Positions 5,996 through 48,331 of a DNA stretch of 64,000 bases are shown here, piece by piece. A program made the position numbers and the translations under genes. The notes below the pieces were generated by a model, which saw only the letters and a list, made by a program, of their open reading frames with translations, had not been told where the DNA came from and did not search any database. Origin of the DNA: a virus. The stretch is taken from positions 8,340 through 72,339 of the IMG/VR virus record IMGVR_UViG_3300032288_003197. One strand, given 5' to 3'. Position 1 is the stretch's first letter; each line of letters begins with the position of its first letter.

Positions 5996-6070
5996 TGGTC
6001 CGGCCACCAGGAATCGAACCTGGATTGACTGCTTAGAAGGCAGATGTTCTATCCATTGAACTATGGCCAG
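5996..6070 (-). tRNA. tRNA-Arg(TCT)
   Basis: Cloverleaf with CTGGCCA/TGGCCGG acceptor stem, anticodon loop CTTCTAA, GGTTCGATTCC T-arm and encoded CCA. Confidence 0.93.
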
Positions 6071-6073
6071 AAT

Positions 6074-6150
6074 TGGTGCGCCCACTAGGACTTGAACCTA
6101 GGACCAATGGATTATGAGTCCACTGCTCTGACCAACTGAGCTATAGGCGC
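6074..6150 (-). tRNA. tRNA with CAT anticodon, probably Ile2 (lysidine type); elongator Met not excluded
   Basis: GCGCCTATAGCTCAGTTGGTCAGAGC ... GACTCATAATC ... GGTTCAAGTCC ... CCA. Confidence 0.9.
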
Positions 6151-14761: not shown

Positions 14762-15597
14762 TAGGTTCCCCATTCATTCTTGAAGAGTGGCACTTGAAGT
14801 CGATCACTGTACCGCCATCCTTTTCGCATTGCCATTTCTGCCACTGCACGATTGTTAAGGGTATACACCCGCTCAACACCACCAACGGGCATAATATAAA
14901 CAGGACCCGTAAAACCTGCCGCACGATATTCATCAACAGCTCGTTCCGCATCATGGAGATCCTCCTCAGTGGACACAACAAACTTTAGATATGTATATCC
15001 AACATCTTGATATTCGCAAACAATTTCTGGACAGATAGCATCTTCCCACCGCTCACCACTGCATGGAAGTTTGGCGCTTACGCTGAATGTGATTTCTCGC
15101 CCTACCTTGTTCCAGTCTTGCAAGTAATTTTTGAACTCTGGTGAGAGTTTTTGAGTGCCATTGGTTTCAAACGTAATCTCTGTTAGCTCACGCATGTCTG
15201 GATGATCCAACAAGTCTGGATAAGAACGTTGCCAACCCAACAATGGTTCACCACCTGTGATTACTAGATGTTCGTCCCGCCATTTCTTGTGCGGTAGCGA
15301 ATCCACAACAGCAAGGGCAACCGCATCAGTATCAAGAACGGGAGATAAATGACGAAAGCGAGGATCCCAACTAGCGTAACTATCACAACCTGTACTAACC
15401 AAAGGAAGAGACTTGTACTCGGTGTACTGATCAGGGTCAATATTGTTTGCTTCATTGCTTAGTTCTCCACGAGACATGCCAAAACCTGCACACTTGAAGT
15501 TGCAGCCAAAAACACGCAAGAATACACTGGGCACCCCCATGTAACGACCTTCGCCTTGAATTGAATAAAATAGTTCTGCTACCTTGAGTTTAGACAT
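14761..15597 (-). CDS. queE: 7-carboxy-7-deazaguanine synthase (radical SAM)
   Basis: ELFYSIQGEG, FLRVFGCNFKC ... GCDSY, ITGGEPLL, FETNGT. Confidence 0.9.
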   Translation of the reverse strand: MSKLKVAELFYSIQGEGRYMGVPSVFLRVFGCNFKCAGFGMSRGELSNEANNIDPDQYTEYKSLPLVSTGCDSYASWDPRFRHLSPVLDTDAVALAVVDSLPHKKWRDEHLVITGGEPLLGWQRSYPDLLDHPDMRELTEITFETNGTQKLSPEFKNYLQDWNKVGREITFSVSAKLPCSGERWEDAICPEIVCEYQDVGYTYLKFVVSTEEDLHDAERAVDEYRAAGFTGPVYIMPVGGVERVYTLNNRAVAEMAMRKGWRYSDRLQVPLFKNEWGT

Positions 15598-32255: not shown

Positions 32256-34912
32256 TCAAATTCAAACAAACTACTAAATGTATTTTCTGTGTTGGTTGCA
32301 CTTGCAAGATCCCAATCCAACACACCCAACAAGTTGTCAACTTTGCCATCCACCACAGTTGCCTCCATCTCTCCGTCATCAAACGGCAAAGACGTAAACC
32401 AACTTGGCAATCTTTGTTCATCTGTTGGATAACCAATTGAAGTCCAACCTAGAGCATTGCTTCTTAGTTTGCAAACAATAGTTTTCATGCCATCCACAAT
32501 CTGCATACTATAGTTGTCGCCATTCATCTTGCGCATGTTGTTCCAGTTGATTGCGGCTCGCACATGCCCGGGCATGTTGGCTTTGCCAAGTCTTGCTTCC
32601 TCTGCTGAATACTTGGTCAAGTTGTTCACACGCTTGGGGCTACCCTTTTCCCAACCTGGACGTTCTTTGAACTCGTATTTGAATTCACGGATGCGTTCCA
32701 CAATCTCATCTCGACCTGCACCAGCAAGTAGTTTATTTAGAATTTCCAACAAGAAGTCTTGAATTACCTTGGGGGTATCTGAGCGTTTAAGGTCAAGTCC
32801 TGTGGCTTTGGTTTTGCCAATTGAGCCATTGACATCAAGACGCTTGCCTTCGATGTCAATGGCGTTGACAGCATAACGCTTTTTTGTGATAAACAAGCCA
32901 CGGTCTGCCACAGTTTCACGACCGCATTTGATCAGTTCACCCATGTCTCGGGGGCAGTGGAACGCCTGTTCCATAAAGCCCGGGAAACTCGAGTTGACTT
33001 GGTCAGCAAGGCTGTCATACAGTTGAATACAAGTCTCTTTTGACCACGCCATACGTCCTTCTTCAACTTCCTTCTTAAGCGCGGGCCATGCTGAAAAATA
33101 ACATGAGTCCGTATCTCCATATATGACTGCTTTTCCAACATGATCATACTCGCCCGTGATGAGTTCGTTAAGATAAGCATCCATGTGTTTTGCAATCGAA
33201 CGACCAGTAAGAGTGGTGGACTGCCCAATACGTTTGTCAAAGAACCTACAGCCAGGATTAAGAATAGCACCGTACAAACTGTTGAGGTTAATCTTTTTAA
33301 CTAACTGACGCTTGTCCCAGAATGCAATTTCTTTGGCATCTTTGGCTTCCTTCTTCTTGGCCTGCAATTCCTTACGTTCCGAATACCAACGCTCTAGCAA
33401 GCCGGGGATGATGCCCTTCTTCTCAAATGTGAGAATAGTGCCGTTGGCAGTCAATATCCACGGCTGGTTACTATCAAAGATAATGTTCCAGATTTCTGCG
33501 GCTGAGTGTACACTTTCTTCGCCGTTTTCCCAGTCAATGGTGATCTCAGTGCCGCGTTCTTGATTCATCACAGCAGTGTATTCAAGACAAGCAAACAAAC
33601 CTTCCCAAGCAGCCGCAAAGCTCTGACCCTTGGCCATGTTGTTTTTGATCAACTGGTTGGTCATCACAGGGCGCAGTTGACCCACAATGGTTTCTGGTCC
33701 CATGTTGCAGGCACGAATCGCACTGGGGTATAGGCTGTTGATGTCCACTGACCCAATCCATTCATGCACACCTTTCTTGGGATAGGCCACATAAGCACCT
33801 GCGGCCTGTGTGTCTTCATCTGTAAGGCGTTGCTTGCGGTTAGGCACAACCATGCCACGTTCATGTGCTTCGTTGATGATGGCTTGTTCAGTCACTGCCA
33901 CGGCACCCATGGTGGTCTGTAATAACACAGTGTTGGCATGTGCCAGTTCGTTGGCCAGATCCAAAAAGCGCAACTTCTTGTCTAGTTTACCAATCAGTGC
34001 AGTGTCTTGGCGGTTGTATTCAATGAACGTTCGGAAGTGCTGGTTGTACAGTTGATCCAGTGTGCCTTCAAACTGTGTCTTGCGTTCGCCCAGTTCGTAT
34101 TCACAAATAGCATCCAAGCTGTATGAATGGCGTTCTTCGTATGTGTACTTGCGATACAGTTGCATATAGTCCATATGCACACGACCGATCAAATCATAAG
34201 TTTCGTTTTCAGCGCCAAAGCGTTCAAACATGCGCTTCTTGGGCAGTTGCCCCCACAAGCAGAATTTACGTGTGTCATCTTTTGACAGCACACGCACACA
34301 TCTGTTGACAGTATAAGGAATATCATAGCCCTCTGAGTTCCAACCACTCAGCACATCGGCGTCGTCAATCAAGTCAAGGAATGTCTTGATCATTTCAGCT
34401 TCGTCTTCAAACAAAATAGTGTTGTCAAAGTCTTTGACCAACTCATGTGCAGTTTCCCAACTTAGATGTCGGGGCGGTACTGCCAATGTAACAAGTTGAT
34501 CTAACCAATCAAGGTAAACTGAAATAGCGGTGATAGGATTGAATGGATCCTCAACTGGTGAGAAACCACGCTCTTTGTCAAATGCAACCTCGATGTCGAA
34601 AAAAGCTGTGTGTAGTTCAGGGGCGTCAGCACCTTTGTAGTTTTCTTCAAGACATCGGAATATGGGATTGATGTCTGATTCATAAAGTTGCTTGCCGCTG
34701 TGAATACGGACTTCCTTGCGGAACTCTTTGTTATTGCGTGTAGAAAATCTTGATACGGGTGTGCCGTAGATGCTGCGAAACTTTCCACGTGGATCATCGT
34801 AATAGAAAATGTAATTTGCTGGATACTCTTTGTAGACTCGCACGCCGTCACGGCGTTCCACAGTATGAATGCGATCGTGTTCACGATCAAATAGTGCGTC
34901 AATATAACTCAT
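32252..34912 (-). CDS. polB: family B DNA polymerase
   Basis: FFDIEV, GWNSEGYDIPY, DINSLYPS, KINLNSLYG, YGDTDS, KKRY. Confidence 0.97.
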   Translation of the reverse strand: MSYIDALFDREHDRIHTVERRDGVRVYKEYPANYIFYYDDPRGKFRSIYGTPVSRFSTRNNKEFRKEVRIHSGKQLYESDINPIFRCLEENYKGADAPELHTAFFDIEVAFDKERGFSPVEDPFNPITAISVYLDWLDQLVTLAVPPRHLSWETAHELVKDFDNTILFEDEAEMIKTFLDLIDDADVLSGWNSEGYDIPYTVNRCVRVLSKDDTRKFCLWGQLPKKRMFERFGAENETYDLIGRVHMDYMQLYRKYTYEERHSYSLDAICEYELGERKTQFEGTLDQLYNQHFRTFIEYNRQDTALIGKLDKKLRFLDLANELAHANTVLLQTTMGAVAVTEQAIINEAHERGMVVPNRKQRLTDEDTQAAGAYVAYPKKGVHEWIGSVDINSLYPSAIRACNMGPETIVGQLRPVMTNQLIKNNMAKGQSFAAAWEGLFACLEYTAVMNQERGTEITIDWENGEESVHSAAEIWNIIFDSNQPWILTANGTILTFEKKGIIPGLLERWYSERKELQAKKKEAKDAKEIAFWDKRQLVKKINLNSLYGAILNPGCRFFDKRIGQSTTLTGRSIAKHMDAYLNELITGEYDHVGKAVIYGDTDSCYFSAWPALKKEVEEGRMAWSKETCIQLYDSLADQVNSSFPGFMEQAFHCPRDMGELIKCGRETVADRGLFITKKRYAVNAIDIEGKRLDVNGSIGKTKATGLDLKRSDTPKVIQDFLLEILNKLLAGAGRDEIVERIREFKYEFKERPGWEKGSPKRVNNLTKYSAEEARLGKANMPGHVRAAINWNNMRKMNGDNYSMQIVDGMKTIVCKLRSNALGWTSIGYPTDEQRLPSWFTSLPFDDGEMEATVVDGKVDNLLGVLDWDLASATNTENTFSSLFEFE

Positions 34913-34984
34913 TGTTCTCCGTTTGTGGCCGGCTAGCCTTGATACATGCTCGTGACGTGAGCGACTCGTCTACTGAGTAGATAT

Positions 34985-35245
34985 TTATAGAGTTTTGCCC
35001 ACAGTTTCAAGAATTGTTTCCAGGGTCTCGTGGTCTTGCTTTTCTTTGCCGAATTCTGCTTTGTGAGCCAGCTTGATGGCTTTCTTGAGAATGGCAGGTT
35101 TGACTTCTAACTCTTCGGCCACAGCCTTGATGGTATCGTTGAGGCCACCTTGCAGCGTGTCAATCTCATGCATGACCTGCATGCCTTCGTTGATGATTTG
35201 AGTGAGTTTGACCTTTTGGTCACCGTTGAATGTTTTGGTTGACAT
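34985..35245 (-). CDS. small dsDNA-binding protein (T4 DsbA/GapR-like)
   Basis: Helical ~86 aa with IKAVAEELEVKPAILKKAIK pattern; AGGAG SD. Confidence 0.55.
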   Translation of the reverse strand: MSTKTFNGDQKVKLTQIINEGMQVMHEIDTLQGGLNDTIKAVAEELEVKPAILKKAIKLAHKAEFGKEKQDHETLETILETVGKTL

Positions 35246-35264
35246 AGACATCTCCTAAAGTGTT

Positions 35265-35292
35265 ATTATAACACTTATTTTGGAGATGTCAA
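35265..35292 (-). promoter_or_regulatory. sigma70 promoter for the replication operon
   Basis: TTGACA-N16-TATAAT with extended TG. Confidence 0.7.
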
Positions 35293-35300
35293 GGTGTATG

Positions 35301-35375
35301 TGCTCGTTTTGGACCTCAAGGTAGCGAATCTCTTGGTCCAGGCAGCAGCCGCCCACTCGGTCCTAAGGGCTGAGT
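35301..35375. ncRNA. candidate structured RNA containing rRNA-matching segments
   Basis: Two hairpins plus exact matches AAGGTAGCGAA and CGGTCCTAAGG (23S) and CAGCAGCCGC (16S) on the plus strand. Confidence 0.55.
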
Positions 35376-38300
35376 TACTTGGCCATTCGCTGGCTGTATT
35401 CTCTACGACGTTGAGCACCAACTCGGGTTACATGTTCAATCAGTTGGTTGCGAACTGCAAATGCTGATTCGCTTACTGCACCGTATCGCACAAATGTTTG
35501 GTCAATAAACTGTTTGATACGAGCAATGTCTTCTTTGGTTTCTACCATGTTCAACATTTCTGCCACAGGCTGTTTTGCTGCCTGAGCAATACGTTGGGCC
35601 AATTTGGCTTGTTCCTCGGGAGTTGGTCCCCCGGCGGTTACTTTGGGTCCTGCGGGCACAGCAGCCTTTACACCTGCGCCACCACCTGCTGGCAATGAGG
35701 CAGTGGTTGGGGCAGCAGTTTTCATGCCTGGAATACCAGTCATGGGCTTGACTGTGGTTGTGGTTTTGCCATAGCCGCTGGGTCCTGCAAAACTAGGTGT
35801 CTGGGCAGGTGCAGTCTTCTTGGCATACTTTTCCATGCCAGGCAGTTTCATTACATTGGCGCCACTGAATGTTGCTGGGCCAGTTGATTTGGTGGTTGCT
35901 GTCTGTGGCGCCGGTTGCGTATCCGGGGCAGCAGCCTGCTCGGGCTCCTTGCCATAAGCCAATAACTCATCCACGGTGTAAGGTTTCTCGGTTTTAGGAT
36001 TAATACCAGCATAAGCCTGTCGTTGTGCCCCACCAGCAACAGGTGCACGGGGAACTCCAGCCTTTTCTGCACCTGCTGGTTGATCAGCAGTGGTTGGTGT
36101 TGCAGAGACTGGCAGGCCCATGGTTGAATACACAGAATTGACCACGCCAATTGGAACGCCTTGTTTGACCAGCCAAGCAGACAATTGATCGCTGTCTGTA
36201 GGCTTGCCGCCCTGTTGCCAATTCATCTTGAGTTTTTCTTTTGTGACGTTTCTAGTAAGCTGCCGCCCAGCAGTGCTCAATGCACTGCCCACTGCCTTGG
36301 TGCCACGATCTAAGGCATCAAGTCCCCGGCCAAACCAACTCTTTTTTGCAGGGTCTGCGGGTGTGTACGGTGCATCGGGTGCATCAGGACGATAAAGATC
36401 AGGCAGTTCTTCACGACCGGGGCCTGTTGGGGTAGTGTTAACAGGTGCAGTAGGTGCCGGAGTAGGTGCCGGAGTAGGTGCTAATGGCACAGTGGTCGCA
36501 GACCGGCTACGACTTCTATTGATTGTGTCCTCGGGTGATCCAAACTTTAGTTCTGGTCCCAACGGAGCAGGTGCTGGCGTGGGTGTAGGTGCTGGCCTAG
36601 GTGTCGGGGGCGGATTGTATTGAAATGGATCTAATGGTTCTGGTGGAACTTCATCTACTGGCCCAAATGGTTCAGGAGCTGGCCCGGACACAGGTTTATC
36701 ACCAGCAGCAAGTCGTCGTTCCAATTCTGCTTTGACTTGGCGGGAAACATCATTGTCTTTATCACCATGCATTCCCACCCAGTTTTGTAAATCTTGTGTA
36801 GATCTTTTAGCCAGTGTAGCAGAAAGATCAAGTTCTGCTAGGGTTTGAATGTTTTCAAACACTGCATCGATACCGCGCTGTGTTAAGTGTACACTACGAC
36901 CTTGTGGCTTGCCTACGCTTTCATTTAAAGCCCAAGACAACTTGGTGAGCTTTTGATCAATCATTTGTTCAGCTGGCAAGGTGCGTAGTTTTACACTTTC
37001 TTTAATGGCACCAGCCATGGCAGCCTTGGCCTTGAGTGTGGCAATCTGCTGTGCAGACTGAATTGCTCTGGCACTGGGTTCAGCACCGTATTTGGCAATC
37101 TCTTGTGCATAGATTTGTTTGTAAACAGGATTGTCAAAAATATTTTGAGCAGTTACACCACCAAGTGTGCCGGCGCCGCCGGTTGTTGCACTACTGACCG
37201 CATCAGCTGGAAATTTTGTAAAGTAAGCTGTACCATTGTAAACGTATCCAGTGACTTCTTGTCCGTTGTATGGAATTACAATTTTTTCTGCGCCTACTGG
37301 GATCCTTGGTTGGAATTGACCACCTTGTGGGAACACTGCTGCCTTGATAGTTTCTCCGGAAGGCAGTTGCACTGTGCCTGAGTTTGTGACAGGATCAAAA
37401 GTCAAGGGACTACTTGCAGGTGCAGCAGCCGCAGCAGAGGCAACATCATCCATTGGAACCAAACGCATTGGTTGACCGTTTGGGCCAATTGGGGTAATGC
37501 CTGAATCAAATGGCTTGCCTATTGTACTGCCACCAGCAGCAGAGGCAGCATCACCAGCAGCGGGACCACCCAGCAATTCTGGTCCAGTCACTTTGTCCCC
37601 GTACATGCCACCTTGGTAGCCAGACCACACACTGCCTTGTCCAGGTGTGCCACCGGGCGGCAAGTTGAGTTCCATGCCCTTTTGCAATGCTTTGCTGAAA
37701 TCAATGTTGGGATTGGCGGCTCGAATGGCTTCGGGGGTAGTGCCTTGTGCTTGTGCAATAAAGCCTAGTTGATCTCCATCTACCACAGTATAAGAACCGC
37801 CTCCGGTTGGAGCAACACTACCACTTGGGGCAGCGTCAAATTTAGTACCTTGAGGAACAGTGTCTGCAGCAGCAGCGTCGCCGCTAAACATTGAAGCGAC
37901 TTTTGATGCAGCCCAAGCAGTGGCAGCAGCTCCGCCGGCCTTGAGTGCAATATCTGAGAACTTCTCGCCCTTGATGGCCGAATCCAATCCATACACAAAT
38001 GCAGCAATTGCAGGAGCACCTGCGCCTCCAGTGGCAAGACCAGTGATGGCAACTATGGCAGCTTTGGCCAGGCCAGCTGTCTTGGGATATTCTTTGGCCA
38101 ACATGCGATACTTCTTGATCGCTGACATGATTTTGCCTTTTTCGCCGCCAGCAACGTCGGCCAGCGCATCTGTGGCTTTGTCGTAGGCCACGTCAACAAA
38201 AGAAATAGGAGTAGAACTTTGGATGCCGCTCCAAACACCTTTCAGTGCATCGGCCACACCACCTGCAAAATCTGTAGCGGTATCTTTACCACGGCCCAGC

Positions 38301-38851
38301 CAAGTACGGTTAGCACCAGTGGCTTTGTCAGTCATGCCGTTTTCAACATCAGCAAACACTTGCAAGATTTCTTTTTCTGTCATCTTGCGTTCAGCAATAT
38401 AGCGGCCTACCTTTTTAAAATTACGATAGACAGGATCTTCCATGAGCCAGGCTTCGTCAATGCGACGCTTTTTGTTTTGTTTGCCTTCGGCCATGCCTTG
38501 CTTTAACTTTTGTTTGATAGCGTTGATCTGTTGATTAATTCCGTGCTGTTCTTTCCAGAATCTGTGATCATCGCTGTATTCAAAACTAGGATCAAATTCA
38601 GCTTCTAGCTTTTTTAGTTTGGATTCAAGGCCAGCACGTTCTTCGTCGCTGAGTGGTATAGGAGCAGGAGCAGGTGCGTTGGCACGATCAGCCGCACGTT
38701 GCTTTAGCATGGCATCAGTTCTAGCACGTTCTTCGTCAGGAGTTCCTGCCAGGCGCGGGTTCATGCCTTTGGCTTTTGCCATGGCCATGAATTCATCTGC
38801 GAGACCTTCTTGGAGATTTTTTTTGTTATCAAATAATTGGTCTACTATCAT
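35375..38851 (-). CDS. large Ala/Pro-rich protein with a LysM domain (probable virion/injected protein)
   Basis: YTVVDGDQLGFIAQAQGTTPEAIRAANP ... LQKGMELNLP (LysM); hydrophobic G/A-rich segment; low-complexity linkers. Confidence 0.75.
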   Translation of the reverse strand: MIVDQLFDNKKNLQEGLADEFMAMAKAKGMNPRLAGTPDEERARTDAMLKQRAADRANAPAPAPIPLSDEERAGLESKLKKLEAEFDPSFEYSDDHRFWKEQHGINQQINAIKQKLKQGMAEGKQNKKRRIDEAWLMEDPVYRNFKKVGRYIAERKMTEKEILQVFADVENGMTDKATGANRTWLGRGKDTATDFAGGVADALKGVWSGIQSSTPISFVDVAYDKATDALADVAGGEKGKIMSAIKKYRMLAKEYPKTAGLAKAAIVAITGLATGGAGAPAIAAFVYGLDSAIKGEKFSDIALKAGGAAATAWAASKVASMFSGDAAAADTVPQGTKFDAAPSGSVAPTGGGSYTVVDGDQLGFIAQAQGTTPEAIRAANPNIDFSKALQKGMELNLPPGGTPGQGSVWSGYQGGMYGDKVTGPELLGGPAAGDAASAAGGSTIGKPFDSGITPIGPNGQPMRLVPMDDVASAAAAAPASSPLTFDPVTNSGTVQLPSGETIKAAVFPQGGQFQPRIPVGAEKIVIPYNGQEVTGYVYNGTAYFTKFPADAVSSATTGGAGTLGGVTAQNIFDNPVYKQIYAQEIAKYGAEPSARAIQSAQQIATLKAKAAMAGAIKESVKLRTLPAEQMIDQKLTKLSWALNESVGKPQGRSVHLTQRGIDAVFENIQTLAELDLSATLAKRSTQDLQNWVGMHGDKDNDVSRQVKAELERRLAAGDKPVSGPAPEPFGPVDEVPPEPLDPFQYNPPPTPRPAPTPTPAPAPLGPELKFGSPEDTINRSRSRSATTVPLAPTPAPTPAPTAPVNTTPTGPGREELPDLYRPDAPDAPYTPADPAKKSWFGRGLDALDRGTKAVGSALSTAGRQLTRNVTKEKLKMNWQQGGKPTDSDQLSAWLVKQGVPIGVVNSVYSTMGLPVSATPTTADQPAGAEKAGVPRAPVAGGAQRQAYAGINPKTEKPYTVDELLAYGKEPEQAAAPDTQPAPQTATTKSTGPATFSGANVMKLPGMEKYAKKTAPAQTPSFAGPSGYGKTTTTVKPMTGIPGMKTAAPTTASLPAGGGAGVKAAVPAGPKVTAGGPTPEEQAKLAQRIAQAAKQPVAEMLNMVETKEDIARIKQFIDQTFVRYGAVSESAFAVRNQLIEHVTRVGAQRRREYSQRMAK

Positions 38852-44224: not shown

Positions 44225-47200
44225 TCATCTCATGATTGGGAGTACTTCTACTTGGGTTCCGTATGTATAACCTTGTTGCGCCAGCCAGCGAGTTGCAACA
44301 CGATTTGCATCACCTTGACTGTTGCCCACACCACCAAATCGATACAGCTCGCGACCATTGTTGTCGACCACTTGCCACTCGCCTGTGAACCTGCCGCTGG
44401 CAGCAAGACCTTGATCTATTAGACTGCCAGGATCTGAACTTTGCTGTGTGCTCGGAGTCTGCGTAGCCAGTGGAATATCAAGTTCAACGTCAGTGACTCC
44501 CGGTATAGGCACAGATTGATATTGAGCTGCTCGTTGACGTTGTAGGTCTAGAGTGGATCCAGGAACAGGTGGTTGTCCTAATCGTTGGCCGGGATCATAT
44601 CTCAGTTGCCATTCTCCAGGATTCTCACGGCTCCATTGCAGCAACACTGTGTCGGCATCGCCGGCATCTGCTGCCATGAAACGATAGGCGATTGGATCGT
44701 CCACAGAGGCACGGTTTCTCACTATAACATAGGAGCCATCAGGATTGCTGGGACGACCGTTCACAGTCGGTCCTGCACTTTTCGGTGCGGATCCTTGATA
44801 TGGGCGAAGCGGTTTTGCTCGTAGAGATTGCGCAGCCTGACTCATTGGATGAATTCCCCACTCTCGTACCGCAGCAGCAATGGCTTCTTGCGCATTGCTG
44901 GCCACAACTTCTATGCTGCGAGTGTTTTCCCATTCCACATTCCACCACATGGCACCAGTTTGTTTGCCCTTGGCCACACTGCGTTGCAACTGTGCTTGGC
45001 GCACAAAACTCTTCAAGGCCTGCTGAGGCAAATCACCAACTGCATATTTTGTAAAGTATTGTATTGTGTCTGTATCTGCTGAATCTTTTGACAACAACTT
45101 GTACAGCTTTTTTTGATATTCTTCTCGATATGCTTCAGGATCCAGGGCCGCGCTCATGGCCACTGTAAATCTCAACAATGTGTTTTCAATTTGATCAAAG
45201 TTTTCGTTGAGCCAATCACCACCTGGTGAGCGAAATTCTATCCAGCCCTCTTTGGTGTTGATACTGGTGTATTTTCCTGTTTCACCTGAATGTATGGCCT
45301 TGGATGCCAAGTCCTCCATGTGTCCGCGCATTTTGTTCAGCAGCGATTGTGCAGCATTAGGATCCTGTTTTACTCTGTCTTTGACAATTTTCAAAGCAGA
45401 TTCACAATAGGAGTTGCTGGATCTGCCAAATGTGTCCAGTACATATTGATCGCCCATGAGCAAGGCCAGTTTAACAAAGTCTAATCGGTCCTGAGAATAT
45501 CCCGGCACCGAAATGTTGATGTGTAAACCTGTGCTGCTATTGGTGTAACAACCACGACTCGTGGCCCAGGCCTTGACTTTGTTAAGATCACTCAGCATTT
45601 GATCAATGGGCAAGGGCGGAGATACAAATTCTAGACCGGCATCGTTGTGGTCGTCGGCTTCAATACTGCCATCAGGCTCTACCACATAGTGTCCGGCTTC
45701 TCTGCGACCTTGACTATAGCTAGAGCTGGTATTGACAGGACGACCGATGGCCGCTTCAAAATCGTCACCAACGCTGTCTATAGCAGTATTGGTTTCTGGA
45801 TATACCCAGTGCGGCCAGTTAACATCATAGTTACGGAGAACATCACGCATGGTTTCAATACCTTCTGACTCCAACCACTCTGATTCCAGGGCCGCATTTT
45901 CATTAAATTCTTCGCTCCATTCTTCATAGGCAGCATCCATGTCGCTGCTGCCCACACCGTCAAGGGCTGCGTCGTGTTTTTCTTGAACCAATTCTTCAAT
46001 CTTGGATCTGAGTTCTTCATCGTTGACGCCAAACTCAGGAGCACTGTCTAGAATTTGTTGTTCGGCTTCTTGGCGCCATTCATCTTCGTAGGTTCGCCAA
46101 AGCCAGTCACGAACATAATCATCAACGTCTTCTTTCCACTGTTGCTCTCTCCGCTCTTCCAACCACTCATAATATTGATTGGTCATTTCTTCCCGCAAGT
46201 CGGCAATCTCTCTACCACCGTTGTATTCGCCGTCATCAAAGAATCGAACTGCATCTTCAATGTCACCTACTGATTCGTTGTAATTCCAATCGGGCTCTGG
46301 GTCGACGCTGCCTACGCCATCGCCATTATCAATATCTACGTTGGGCACAACCATTTCAAATTCCATGCCCGCACGTGCACCGGTTTTTGCAGCTTCTTGA
46401 CGCAGATTGCTGGGACTCATTCGAATCTCGCCCAGCACTTCATCTTCTAATAGTTCAAACTCTCTACGCAGGCTTTCCACCAGATCATCTTCTTCGTCTA
46501 CATTGTACGTGGGATCTGTCTTGATCTTACGCATGCCTGCAGGTTGCTGGGGATCCTTGGGGTCAATGTCTGTGACGTCAAGTCCTGTGGCTTTGAGATC
46601 TTTGATAAATTTGTGTTCGGTTTCTTCGTCGCCGAAGCTTATGATAGCACTGGGCGGTCCCTTGCCAAAATCATGTTTGCCCAGGCCTTTCATGTTGCTG
46701 ATATGCTGTCCCAACTTATACCAATCATACACATCACTCACATCCACTCGCACAGTGCCTGCAGGCATGGTAGGCGGAGTCTCAGGACCCAGGGGCTGAT
46801 TCAGTTCGCGATACTGGCCGGGACCTTGGCTGGGCTGTGGCATACGACCTTCGCGTAGGTTCACAGTTTTCATAAGCAACGCAGGTTTACCTTGACTGTC
46901 GGTGTCCAAGGCCAGCTTGTTGGCTTCCCGGCCAACTTGACCTGGTTTGATGTCCACAGTCAGAGCCATTGAGTAACGTGGATCGCGAGCTTGTTTTTTG
47001 TTCTTGGGAATGTAGCCACTTGCACTTTCCTCTAGCGACACATCTCGAAACATTTCAGGGTGTTTGTCCGCCCAGTGACGCATGATTCTGCCGGCCATGG
47101 CATTGGCTTCATCTTCCCAGGGACTGCCTGTACCACCTGCATCGTCCGGCAAAGTTTGCAGTTCGTTTTGTCGGCAATGAGTGAGCTCATGTGCCATGGT

Positions 47201-48331
47201 TCTCAGGATGTCCAACACATGACGTCCGCTGGTGGCTAGATGCAATAAGTTGTTATCTGGATCAAATTGACCAAAGCTGCCGGTGCTTTCGCTCCAGTCT
47301 GTGTTGTGATGCAACACCATTTCGGGAGCGTTTTCAATATCTAAAAAGTCTATGCAATTGTCGAAAAATCTTGATAGAACAATGTCAATGTCATTTTCAG
47401 TGAGGAACATGGCAGTGGTGGGATTCACACCATCTGGTGATTCATCAACAGGTTCTTCCAGGATGCTCTTGGTACTGGGGTTGACACCATCTGGTGATTC
47501 TGAAAAGCGACTTTCGCCGCCACCACCGTCACCGCCGACCTCGCCGCTGTCACTGAAGCTGAAGCCGGGAGCCCAATAACCACCAAAGCCATATTTGACT
47601 TTTTTCTTTTTGTTTTTCTTTTTAGCTTCAGCCATGCTCAAGTCTCGATCTCGAGCAGCAGTCACGGCGTCTTTCAGCAACTTGATGCAACCACTGTTTC
47701 TCAACAGTTTGAAAGCAATGTTTTCGCAACCAAACTCACCGTGTTGAGCCAGGCCAGCTTGACGCATCTGTTTGATCTTTTGCCACAGTGCGTTGATAAC
47801 AGTCTCGTCGCCTTGCTTGACTGCATCATGAATTCGTGCGTCAAGGTCAGCCACTTTGTCACGCACACAGGCATCATCTATCTTGGCACGTCTGCGACGA
47901 GGAACTGAGATCCACTTGCGGTCTTTTACGGAATAGATGCCTTGACTGTGATGCGGTTGATCAGCGGGTTGCACATACAACTCAACGTCAGCACCACCAA
48001 TGGTTATGTTGTGCTCGTTGTTGTACTGATATTTCTTGGCCGTGAACAGTTCTTGATACACCGGATCCGACGGCATTTGCACCACAAGGTGCAAATCAAT
48101 GTCAGAATTGGGAGTGTAACTGTAGGCTGCGTTTGAGCCTGAAAGTGTGATGTCTTGGATGTCAAGATTTTCTACACCCAAAAATTCTTGGAAATCAGCA
48201 GCGATGGCCAAGAGTTTTTCACGCACTTGCGGCAACAAGTGTTCGTCACGACCCCAGAGCTTGGGGTTGAGACGATTGTGAAATTTTACCGCATCGGCAA
48301 GATTATAAGAGTCCAGTTCTAGAATGTTCAT
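44225..48331 (-). CDS. multidomain protein: Pol-beta nucleotidyltransferase + HExxH zincin + amidoligase (COOH-NH2 ligase)
   Basis: GSNA ... SDIDLH; MAHELTH; GMEFEM ... EPDGSI ... LEFVSPP ... STGLHINIS ... KYTSIN ... IEFRSPG. Confidence 0.75.
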   Translation of the reverse strand: MNILELDSYNLADAVKFHNRLNPKLWGRDEHLLPQVREKLLAIAADFQEFLGVENLDIQDITLSGSNAAYSYTPNSDIDLHLVVQMPSDPVYQELFTAKKYQYNNEHNITIGGADVELYVQPADQPHHSQGIYSVKDRKWISVPRRRRAKIDDACVRDKVADLDARIHDAVKQGDETVINALWQKIKQMRQAGLAQHGEFGCENIAFKLLRNSGCIKLLKDAVTAARDRDLSMAEAKKKNKKKKVKYGFGGYWAPGFSFSDSGEVGGDGGGGESRFSESPDGVNPSTKSILEEPVDESPDGVNPTTAMFLTENDIDIVLSRFFDNCIDFLDIENAPEMVLHHNTDWSESTGSFGQFDPDNNLLHLATSGRHVLDILRTMAHELTHCRQNELQTLPDDAGGTGSPWEDEANAMAGRIMRHWADKHPEMFRDVSLEESASGYIPKNKKQARDPRYSMALTVDIKPGQVGREANKLALDTDSQGKPALLMKTVNLREGRMPQPSQGPGQYRELNQPLGPETPPTMPAGTVRVDVSDVYDWYKLGQHISNMKGLGKHDFGKGPPSAIISFGDEETEHKFIKDLKATGLDVTDIDPKDPQQPAGMRKIKTDPTYNVDEEDDLVESLRREFELLEDEVLGEIRMSPSNLRQEAAKTGARAGMEFEMVVPNVDIDNGDGVGSVDPEPDWNYNESVGDIEDAVRFFDDGEYNGGREIADLREEMTNQYYEWLEERREQQWKEDVDDYVRDWLWRTYEDEWRQEAEQQILDSAPEFGVNDEELRSKIEELVQEKHDAALDGVGSSDMDAAYEEWSEEFNENAALESEWLESEGIETMRDVLRNYDVNWPHWVYPETNTAIDSVGDDFEAAIGRPVNTSSSYSQGRREAGHYVVEPDGSIEADDHNDAGLEFVSPPLPIDQMLSDLNKVKAWATSRGCYTNSSTGLHINISVPGYSQDRLDFVKLALLMGDQYVLDTFGRSSNSYCESALKIVKDRVKQDPNAAQSLLNKMRGHMEDLASKAIHSGETGKYTSINTKEGWIEFRSPGGDWLNENFDQIENTLLRFTVAMSAALDPEAYREEYQKKLYKLLSKDSADTDTIQYFTKYAVGDLPQQALKSFVRQAQLQRSVAKGKQTGAMWWNVEWENTRSIEVVASNAQEAIAAAVREWGIHPMSQAAQSLRAKPLRPYQGSAPKSAGPTVNGRPSNPDGSYVIVRNRASVDDPIAYRFMAADAGDADTVLLQWSRENPGEWQLRYDPGQRLGQPPVPGSTLDLQRQRAAQYQSVPIPGVTDVELDIPLATQTPSTQQSSDPGSLIDQGLAASGRFTGEWQVVDNNGRELYRFGGVGNSQGDANRVATRWLAQQGYTYGTQVEVLPIMR

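What the first reader, a model, noticed from the sequence alone, without database searches (positions are those of the whole stretch)
35301..35375. Intergenic element built from universally conserved rRNA decoding-centre sequences (candidate anti-rRNA RNA or rRNA decoy)
Seen: within ~55 nt the plus strand carries AAGGTAGCGAA (35318-35328), CAGCAGCCGC (35343-35352) and CGGTCCTAAGG (35358-35368), set in hairpins (TGGACC..GGTCCA and ACTCGGTCC-TAA-GGGCTGAGT). Known: these equal E. coli 23S 1927-1937, 16S 519-528 (530 loop) and 23S 1920-1930 (H69-H70, the I-CeuI site). The two 23S pieces overlap in rRNA but appear here in swapped order. All lie at the decoding centre or bridge B2a. Inference: the minus-strand transcript would present three antisense segments to host rRNA, possibly to block, remodel or guide cleavage/modification of ribosomes. 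Alternatively a plus-strand RNA (G-U pairs fit better on that strand) could be a decoy for rRNA-targeting defence toxins or H69-binding factors. I know of no described family like this.
Basis: partly seen in the sequence, partly recalled or inferred. Interest (0 to 1): 0.9.

Follow-up and report, generated by a model that had tools for sequence, protein, structure and literature searches.

The report
Giant-phage folded RNA complementary to 23S rRNA
The flagged stretch is one copy of a real, uncatalogued folded RNA kept by hundreds of uncultured lake giant phages, and its exposed conserved loops are complementary to strands of one junction of bacterial 23S ribosomal RNA, so it may act on the host's large ribosomal subunit.

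Summary
By themselves they are chance-level: 10/11-mer matches to rRNA across the 72-kb record equal expectation.

The site is nevertheless a conserved, about 80-nt structured RNA on the gene-sense (window minus) strand, 35379-35301. It is single-copy in five large relatives, has strongly covarying stems, and matches no Rfam family.

- **23S words.** They are its two invariant 9-nt loops, complementary to 23S 1922-1930 and 1930-1937.
- **16S word.** It is the P2 hairpin, which probably pairs with the 3' tail. Its middle base varies, so the 16S reading fails.
- **Other subfamilies.** A search anchored only on P2 and the tail found subfamilies with different loops. One has segments complementary to 23S 1827-1834 and 1971-1979, the two strands that close the same domain IV junction. 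Two variants shift along the same targets. Two subfamilies show no such match.

Best reading (0.55): a trans-acting antisense RNA against that junction. The plus-strand decoy reading is not supported. This scan reached the same reading before on other DNA (e1-5805066). Expression and binding are untested.

The parts
35301..35379 (-). Whole RNA element as matched by covariance model R1 (90.1 bits, E 1.7e-23).
   Evidence: It is the only significant hit in the 72-kb record.
35375..35377 (-). Stop codon TAA of the 1158-aa LysM-domain gene (35375..38851). Its last A is the first base of P1.
   Evidence: In relatives the upstream stop lies -3 to +9 nt from P1 in 67 of the 69 cases where an upstream ORF was called.
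35355..35375 (-). P1 (ACUC 35375-35372 with GAGU 35358-35355), closing loop L1.
   Evidence: All 4 pairs show changes on both sides; 82% of cells are paired.
35360..35368 (-). L1, CCUUAGGAC, complementary to E. coli 23S 1922-1930 (to 1920-1930 with the next two bases).
   Evidence: Exact in 43 of 46 unique protein-anchored copies. Its 5' part is paired internally in some long variants.
35340..35354 (-). P2 hairpin (GGGC/GCCU stem, loop GGCUGCU). This is the '16S-like' word.
   Evidence: 99% of cells paired, with GC, CG and AU swaps. The loop's middle base varies together with the tail.
35311..35339 (-). P3 hairpin: outer stem GGACC/GGUCC and inner stem.
   Evidence: All 8 pairs show changes on both sides.
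35321..35329 (-). L3, AUUCGCUAC, complementary to 23S 1930-1937 (to 1929-1937 with the closing C).
   Evidence: Exact in 44 of 46 unique protein-anchored copies. Replaced by other loops in other subfamilies.
35301..35310 (-). 3' tail AAAACGAGCA, the candidate pseudoknot partner of the P2 loop.
   Evidence: Contingency of the loop's middle base with the tail. The pairing register is ambiguous.
35265..35292 (-). Sigma-70-type promoter: TTGACA, 16 nt, TG-TATAAT, 12 of 12 matches. It starts 8 nt after the element.
   Evidence: The same 8-nt spacing occurs in 20 of 34 relatives with such a promoter.
34985..35251 (-). Small conserved gene (phrog_12534; phrog_639 'transcriptional regulator'). The true start is probably the second ATG at 35245, behind AGGAG.
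   Evidence: It was the anchor used to find relatives. It is a neighbour, not shown to be part of the element.

Best explanation
The stretch encodes, on the gene-sense strand, a small pseudoknotted RNA that lake giant (jumbo) phages keep as a single-copy gene-like unit. It is wedged between the stop codon of one gene and the promoter of the next.

A conserved scaffold (P2 hairpin, its probable pairing with the 3' tail, and the P3 stem) presents exposed segments that differ between subfamilies. These segments are complementary to strands of one multi-helix junction in domain IV of 23S rRNA.
- In this window, L1 matches 23S 1922-1930 (the H69 3' strand plus linker) and L3 matches 1930-1937 (the 5' strand and loop of the next small hairpin).
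- In another subfamily, segments match 1827-1834 and 1971-1979, the two strands of the helix that closes the junction.

Inferred mechanism: the RNA pairs in trans with these strands while they are still unfolded, in nascent 23S or late pre-50S particles. This keeps the junction from forming, or marks it for a nuclease or enzyme, and so interferes with making or using host large subunits.

Shown: the conserved structure, the strand, the single-copy state, and complementarity beyond chance. Inferred: expression as a discrete RNA, binding, and the effect on ribosomes.
For: Structure:
- On 100 sequences fitted to the model, 88.5% of cells are paired against 56.7% in shuffles. The covariation score is 0.80 against 0.23 (0 of 500 shuffles reach it). 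15 of 16 pairs change on both sides. Slid controls score 0.03-0.11.
- RNAalifold on an unfitted MAFFT alignment found 10 of 13 pairs with compensatory changes.

Strand: all 64 instances in the 80 protein-anchored loci lie on the gene's strand; G-U 100 against A-C 35.

Copy number: one hit in the own record. One each in five relatives of 214-364 kb, with one weaker second copy.

Unit-like behaviour: upstream genes belong to many different families.

Complementarity:
- L1 and L3 give 9-11 and 8-9 nt exact complements that abut at G1929/G1930.
- The chance of such a pair is 4e-5, or 8.4e-4 with L1 given.
- In the set found without using L1 or L3, type 4 loops complement 1971-1979 and a joining segment complements 1827-1834.
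- These two 23S strands pair with each other and close the junction in the fold of 1824-1983.
- Two variants slide along the same targets: L252 to 1968-1976 and L227 to 1927-1935.
- RNAduplex places the best 23S site of all four main words inside 1826-1979.
- A random 9- to 12-mer has an 8-nt complement in 1815-1990 with probability 0.005-0.010.
- 14 of 35 distinct predicted P3 loops map there, against a mean of 0.7 and a maximum of 4 in 200 shuffles. These loops are related by descent.

No local partner: complements of L1 and L3 are not enriched within 1.5 kb.
Against: - Two subfamilies (type 2 loop AGUCGUG, 21 of 50 new hits; type 3, 2 of 50) have no complement of 7 nt or more in that region. 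Their best duplex sites lie elsewhere.
- The 5' half of L1 is paired inside the RNA in some long variants, with covariation (CCUUA:UAAG against CCCUA:UAGGG). In type 4 the joining segment and L3 can pair with each other.
- A second, degenerate copy in one genome has lost L1 and shortened L3 but keeps P2, P3 and the tail.
- The 23S target is invariant, so no host-phage covariation test is possible.
- In mature ribosomes these bases are paired or buried (recalled).
- No transcript ends, strand or abundance are known. One metatranscriptome contig of a relative spans the element, but DNA carry-over cannot be excluded.
- The region 1815-1990 was defined after seeing the first matches.
- Two single L3 variants, in L036 and L056, break a pair with the target.
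Confidence: 0.55

Rival explanations
1. A cis-acting RNA element at an operon boundary. It would be a 3'-end stabiliser, processing site, insulator, or a put-like modifier of the RNA polymerase that reads through into the next unit. The rRNA complementarity would be coincidental.
For: - The element always sits right after a stop codon (67 of 69).
- It usually sits right before a promoter: sigma-70 type in 34 of 100 and late-type TAAATA in at least 19 of 100, against 0.8% and 1% of random windows. The -35 box starts exactly 8 nt after the element in 20 of the 34.
- In some relatives cargo genes (radical SAM/SPASM) start 10-25 nt after it with no promoter between.
- An RNA-library contig of a relative reads across it.
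Against: - There is one copy per genome of about 350 kb, not one per operon.
- There is no U tract.
- Invariant 9-nt loops are not needed for a stabiliser.
- This reading does not explain why different subfamily loops complement one 23S junction.
Confidence: 0.2
2. A protein-binding RNA: the RNA part of a phage RNP, or an operator for a phage regulator. The conserved loops would be protein contacts.
For: - Loops are invariant on variable stems.
- The P2-tail scaffold is conserved across all subfamilies.
- The element lies next to a very conserved small regulator-like gene in many genomes.
Against: - No partner was identified.
- Neighbouring genes vary.
- Loop replacement between subfamilies, and variants that slide along the same rRNA stretch, fit a nucleic-acid target better.
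- This rival is compatible with the main reading if a protein uses the RNA as a guide.
Confidence: 0.12
3. A riboswitch, for example for a 7-deazaguanine precursor, with a layout like preQ1-II/III. Here the pseudoknot would hide a GAG in the tail.
For: - The loop-to-tail pairing with an embedded hairpin resembles that layout.
- Other first-stage notes (e1-6168064, e1-6168070) read folE, queD, queE and dpdA in this record; I did not check them.
- Some copies lie 10-20 nt before a start codon.
Against: - No Rfam match at E up to 10 on the window stretch or up to 1 on five diverse members.
- A promoter usually lies between the element and the next gene.
- Downstream genes are unrelated to one another.
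- The distance from the tail to the start codon is long and variable.
Confidence: 0.04
4. A plus-strand RNA that mimics rRNA as a decoy for rRNA-directed toxins or H69-binding factors.
For: On the plus strand the P3 hairpin resembles the small 23S hairpin at 1927-1944, with a similar loop.
Against: - The orientation is always that of the genes, and nearly all genes here are on the minus strand.
- G-U exceeds A-C in the minus sense.
- The promoter scan of 34000-37000 lists no plus-strand promoter.
Confidence: 0.04
5. The rRNA resemblance is pure chance and the region is an ordinary intergenic spacer.
For: Genome-wide k-mer matches to rRNA are at expectation.
Against: Conservation and covariation in well over 100 distinct sequences, and the Monte Carlo results.
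Confidence: 0.01

Closest known systems
Guide RNAs that pair with rRNA (archaeal and eukaryotic C/D and H/ACA s(no)RNAs)
   Same: A small structured RNA whose exposed segments are complementary to conserved rRNA stretches, on a conserved scaffold that could hold a protein.
   Different: No box motifs or pseudouridylation pocket are apparent in the consensus (by inspection only, with the motifs recalled). It is bacterial-phage encoded. The prongs are hairpin loops and a joining strand. The order of the prongs is swapped relative to a plain antisense. No partner enzyme is known.
Two-loop kissing antisense RNAs (for example OxyS-fhlA, recalled) and group II intron EBS1/EBS2-IBS pairing (recalled)
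   Same: Two separate loops of one RNA pair with two neighbouring target segments. The 5' loop pairs with the 5' segment and the 3' loop with the 3' segment, the same 'swapped' order as here.
   Different: The target would be rRNA rather than an mRNA or an exon. The loops are 9 nt and abut on the target. There are no intron or Hfq-type features.
preQ1-II / preQ1-III riboswitch aptamers (Rfam RF01054, RF02680)
   Same: A hairpin loop pairs with a 3' tail across an embedded hairpin. It occurs in phages that other first-stage notes say carry deazaguanine genes.
   Different: No model match. It is not in a leader of que genes. A promoter usually separates it from the next gene.
Synthetic antisense oligonucleotides used to trap 50S assembly intermediates (PMC12274283; abstract and one passage seen)
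   Same: Short antisense strands against 23S rRNA disturb native pairings during assembly. This shows that the proposed mode of action is physically possible.
   Different: Those are artificial, used in vitro, and target other helices. Here the antisense would be natural and phage-encoded.
HK022 put RNAs (recalled)
   Same: Back-to-back hairpins with linkers of 0-1 nt in a phage transcript, placed after the first gene of a unit.
   Different: put lies downstream of its promoter and acts on the polymerase. This element precedes promoters, is single-copy, and has loops complementary to rRNA.

Membership tests
Any Rfam 15 family (including preQ1-II/III, LSU rRNA, known ribozymes) | Match to the family's covariance model. 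| tested here: not met
   No hit on the element at E up to 10 in window 34000-37000, nor at E up to 1 in five loci holding diverse members.
preQ1-type riboswitch | Sits in the leader of a queuosine or deazaguanine gene, with the ribosome site or a terminator under its control. | tested here: not met
   Downstream there is usually a promoter. Downstream genes are a small regulator-like gene, radical SAM/SPASM proteins or unknowns.
Intrinsic terminator | G+C-rich hairpin followed by a run of U. | tested here: not met
   P3 is followed by AAAA on the minus strand. The terminator scan lists no minus-strand site there.
tRNA / tmRNA | Cloverleaf with acceptor stem, or a tmRNA tag. | tested here: not met
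   ARAGORN finds only tRNA-Arg and tRNA-Met at 5996-6150.
Trans-acting antisense RNA (functional class) | Conserved exposed seed segments on a structured body. | tested here: met
   L1 and L3 are invariant while the stems covary.
Trans-acting antisense RNA (functional class) | Complementarity to a defined target beyond chance. | tested here: met
   Probability 4e-5 for the L1/L3 pair. Further subfamily segments hit the same 23S junction. Types 2 and 3 do not.
Trans-acting antisense RNA (functional class) | Made as an RNA, and binds the target. | not testable with these tools
   Only assembled contigs of one RNA library were available. One contig of a relative spans the element.
C/D or H/ACA guide RNA | Box motifs with a K-turn, or a hairpin pocket with a 3' box. 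| not tested
   None is obvious in the consensus. No formal search was run; the motifs are recalled.
Hfq-type sRNA derived from a 3' UTR | Ends in the mRNA's terminator hairpin with a U tail. | tested here: not met
   There is no U tail.

The most novel reading that the evidence does not exclude
Giant phages carry a modular 'anti-ribosome' RNA. A fixed pseudoknotted scaffold presents exchangeable prongs that invade both strands of helices at the domain IV junction of 23S rRNA (H67, H69 and the hairpin after H69). This would stop the host from completing new 50S subunits, or would guide a nuclease or modifying enzyme to that junction. It would be the first natural RNA known to target bacterial rRNA by base pairing.
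Probability: 0.3. Interest if true: 0.92.

Novelty: categorically new. Interest (0 to 1): 0.82.

Why it matters
I recall no phage or bacterial RNA that acts by pairing with 23S rRNA, and four literature searches listed none.

If the reading holds, it would have three consequences:
- It adds a new way for viruses to take control of, or shut down, host ribosome production.
- It points to the domain IV junction as a natural weak spot of 50S assembly.
- It supplies a ready-made natural scaffold for presenting antisense segments to rRNA.

Even if the rRNA link fails, the element is a widespread, well-supported new RNA family. It is one of the most conserved features of a large group of uncultured lake jumbo phages.

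Tried and rejected
- **blastn against GenBank phages.** Window 34700-36200 gave no match. Relatives came from IMG/VR instead.
- **Alignment A2.** I cut off the 5' strand of P1 by mistake, so it was not used. A3 replaced it.
- **Other copies in the window.** Two exact or near matches to the L3 word at 15293 and 27394 lie inside coding sequence without the rest of the motif. The model's second 'hit' in the record has E 1.36.
- **Small ORF through the element.** A GUG after L1 opens 33 codons in the window. The frame is closed or shifted in relatives (read), so this was rejected.
- **tRNA-like reading of P1, P2 and P3.** Rejected: there is no acceptor stem, P3 is too long, and ARAGORN is silent.
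- **Tail as Shine-Dalgarno for cargo genes.** The spacing is 10-21 nt and variable. Only about a third of genes here show a core SD in any case (23 of 70 by a crude ATG-only gene call). Left open but unlikely.
- **Pairing of the tail with L3.** Rejected as the main partner, because the tail stays constant where L3 is replaced.
- **P2-loop to tail pseudoknot.** The contingency supports it, but the commonest class (middle base G) needs a bulged G. The register is therefore unsettled, and I did not score it with the count of structure pairs.
- **P2 loop against 23S 1902-1908.** Seven pairs including two G-U. Not above chance, and contradicted by the variable middle base.
- **Local partners of L1 and L3.** 23 and 29 seven-mer matches against about 49 expected within 1.5 kb, so there are none.
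- **Sequencing runs.** Of 22 runs only one is RNA, and it holds 0.05 of the sampled words. All are assembled contigs, so no ends, strand or level could be read. The habitat labels of small-share runs were not used as evidence.
- **Host.** The only 2 hits in 185,579 species genomes are contigs of one Haliscomenobacter MAG. I take them for binned phage contigs and did not test that. The host remains unknown.
- **Literature.** Four searches listed no natural phage RNA described as pairing with 23S rRNA. A survey of more than 10,000 candidate structured RNAs in IMG/VR (PMC10690425; passages seen) may list this motif in supplements that I could not open.
- **Helix numbers.** H67, H69, H70 and H71, and the statement that the target is buried in mature ribosomes, are recalled. 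Only the pairing of 1829-1833 with 1972-1976 and the hairpins were checked, by a thermodynamic fold.

Full report
**Where it lies.** The window is 64 kb of a 72,339-bp virus record. CheckV rates the record 21% complete. Its relatives include closed genomes of 340-364 kb, so it is a fragment of a jumbo phage.

Nearly all ORFs of 150 aa or more are on the minus strand. The finding lies between two features:
- the stop codon (35377-35375) of a 1158-aa gene with one LysM domain;
- a 12-of-12 sigma-70-type promoter with an extended -10 (35292-35265).

That promoter precedes a small conserved gene (phrog_12534/phrog_639) and a family B DNA polymerase. The polymerase's nearest GenBank relatives are jumbo phages at no more than 50% identity.

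**The observation.** As word matches they mean nothing. Across the record, 10- and 11-mer matches to E. coli rRNA equal expectation (638 against 624; 163 against 156), and three separate matches within 60 nt are common.

**It is a conserved RNA.**
- The small gene has at least 582 relatives in IMG/VR, of which 80 loci were kept. In 64 of these 80 loci the same element lies upstream, always on the gene's strand, giving 46 unique sequences.
- An exact-pattern scan found at least 120 more viral contigs. It found only two contigs of one MAG among 185,579 species genomes.
- RNAalifold on a plain MAFFT alignment found 10 of 13 pairs with compensatory changes.
- A covariance model (R1) aligned 100 representatives. 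On these, 88.5% of cells are paired against 56.7% in shuffles. The covariation score is 0.80 against 0.23, and 15 of 16 pairs change on both sides. Slid controls score 0.03-0.11. That alignment is fitted to the structure, which favours it.
- G-U pairs outnumber A-C 100 to 35 in the minus sense.
- No Rfam family matches.

**Anatomy in the RNA sense.**
- P1 begins at the last base of the stop codon and encloses L1, CCUUAGGAC. Many relatives carry an extra hairpin inside it.
- P2 is a 4-bp stem with loop GGCUNCU.
- P3 is a long interrupted stem with loop L3, AUUCGCUAC.
- A run of AAA and the tail ending in GAGCA follow.
- The middle base of the P2 loop varies together with the tail. G goes with GUGAGC in 98 of 102 cases, A with a U before AGC or GGC in 8 of 9, and U with (A/C/U)GAGC in 18 of 21. 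This suggests a loop-tail pseudoknot, but the register for the G class needs a bulge.

**A gene-like unit.**
- It is single-copy in the own record and in five large relatives. One of those has a second, degenerate copy that has lost L1.
- The genes upstream belong to many families. The stop codon lies -3 to +9 nt from P1 in 67 of the 69 cases where my criteria called an upstream ORF; 31 of 100 were not called.
- Downstream there is a sigma-70-type promoter in 34 of 100 and a T4-late-like TAAATA box in at least 19 of 100, against 0.8% and 1% of random windows.
- In some relatives radical SAM/SPASM or unknown genes start 10-25 nt after the tail.

**The link to 23S rRNA.**
- L1 and L3 are nearly invariant in the protein-anchored set: 43 and 44 of 46. 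They complement 23S 1922-1930 and 1930-1937 and abut at G1929/G1930.
- Random 9-mer pairs achieve this in 16 of 400,000 trials. With L1 fixed, a random second loop does so in 334 of 400,000.
- To avoid circularity I searched with P2 and the tail only. The model then found 50 further members among 77 new loci.
- Their P3 loops fall into classes: type 1-like 16, type 2 (AGUCGUG) 21, type 3 (2), type 4 (UACGCCAG) 8, a type 4 variant 1, and other 2.
- Type 4 loops complement 23S 1971-1979. A conserved segment between the P1 domain and P2 complements 1827-1834. It is present in 8 of the 9 unique type 4 sequences.
- In the fold of E. coli 23S 1824-1983, 1829-1833 pairs with 1972-1976 and closes a junction. 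That junction carries a long hairpin, the H69 hairpin, the small hairpin 1927-1944 and the next one.
- One variant complements 1968-1976 and another 1927-1935. They share a core with types 4 and 1 but extend along the target in the other direction.
- RNAduplex puts the best 23S site of L1, L3, the type 4 loop and the type 4 joining segment all inside 1826-1979.
- A random 9- to 12-mer has an 8-nt complement in 1815-1990 with probability 0.005-0.010.

**Counter-evidence.**
- Types 2 and 3 have no such complement.
- Part of L1 is paired internally in some variants.
- The type 4 joining segment and loop can pair with each other.
- The degenerate copy lacks L1.
- The region was delimited after the first matches were seen.

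**Reading.** The most economical account is a scaffold that presents antisense prongs to the strands of one 23S junction. It would act while they are unpaired, in nascent 23S or late pre-50S. The effect (blocked assembly, guided cleavage or modification) is inference.

Synthetic antisense oligonucleotides can trap 50S assembly in vitro (PMC12274283; abstract and one passage seen), so the mode is plausible. The fixed position after a stop codon and before a promoter keeps a cis role in play; the two roles are not exclusive. Expression is unproven. One RNA-library contig of a relative spans 35208-35486 (record 22), but DNA carry-over cannot be excluded.

**Earlier notes.** Another agent of this scan, working on another genome, called the same family a knotted RNA antisense to 23S (e1-5805066). 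A first-stage note on a third genome flagged the three hairpins (e1-5833443). I treated both as leads.

Noticed in passing
window 34985-35251 (-) and loci L002-L081: The small regulator-like protein (86-88 aa) is 89-99% identical in the 80 loci kept, out of at least 582 IMG/VR matches. The contigs range from 4 kb to 364 kb. This is unusually strong conservation for a phage protein of unknown role. Its true start is probably the second ATG, at 35245.
   Followed up: partly
loci L006, L028, L032, L033, L038, L049, L056, L062, L071; L210:1587-2051: Variable cargo genes are inserted between the RNA element and the small gene, or follow the second copy. They start 10-25 nt after the tail and often lack a Shine-Dalgarno. 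Pfam finds radical SAM, with an N-terminal SPASM domain in two, in 5 of the 10 scanned.
   Followed up: partly
downstream of the element in e.g. L084, L091, L103, L134, L150, L171: A T4-late-promoter-like box ((G/C/T)ATAAATA) lies a few bases before the next start codon. This suggests very short or absent leaders for late genes in these phages.
   Followed up: no
whole record G000: CheckV rates the 72-kb record 21% complete, and relatives are 340-364 kb with terminal repeats. The window is a fragment of a jumbo phage.
   Followed up: yes
L082, L083 (contigs of a Haliscomenobacter sp. MAG): These are the only species-genome hits for the element. They are probably phage contigs binned with the MAG. 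The sigma-70-type promoters and AGGAG sites of these phages, from recall, do not look Bacteroidota-like.
   Followed up: no
L272:1275-1384 (-): A sub-threshold match to Rfam Atu_At1 sRNA (47.2 bits against a gathering score of 60, E 1e-4). It lies about 220 nt upstream of the element on the other strand.
   Followed up: no
window 44225-48331 (-): A 1368-aa protein with an amidoligase domain (Pfam PF12224, PHROG 2443) lies a few genes upstream.
   Followed up: no
window 35466-35476 (+): The LysM mRNA carries an 8-nt complement to L3 about 90 nt upstream of the element. It is also seen in L006 but not generally, so it is probably chance.
   Followed up: yes
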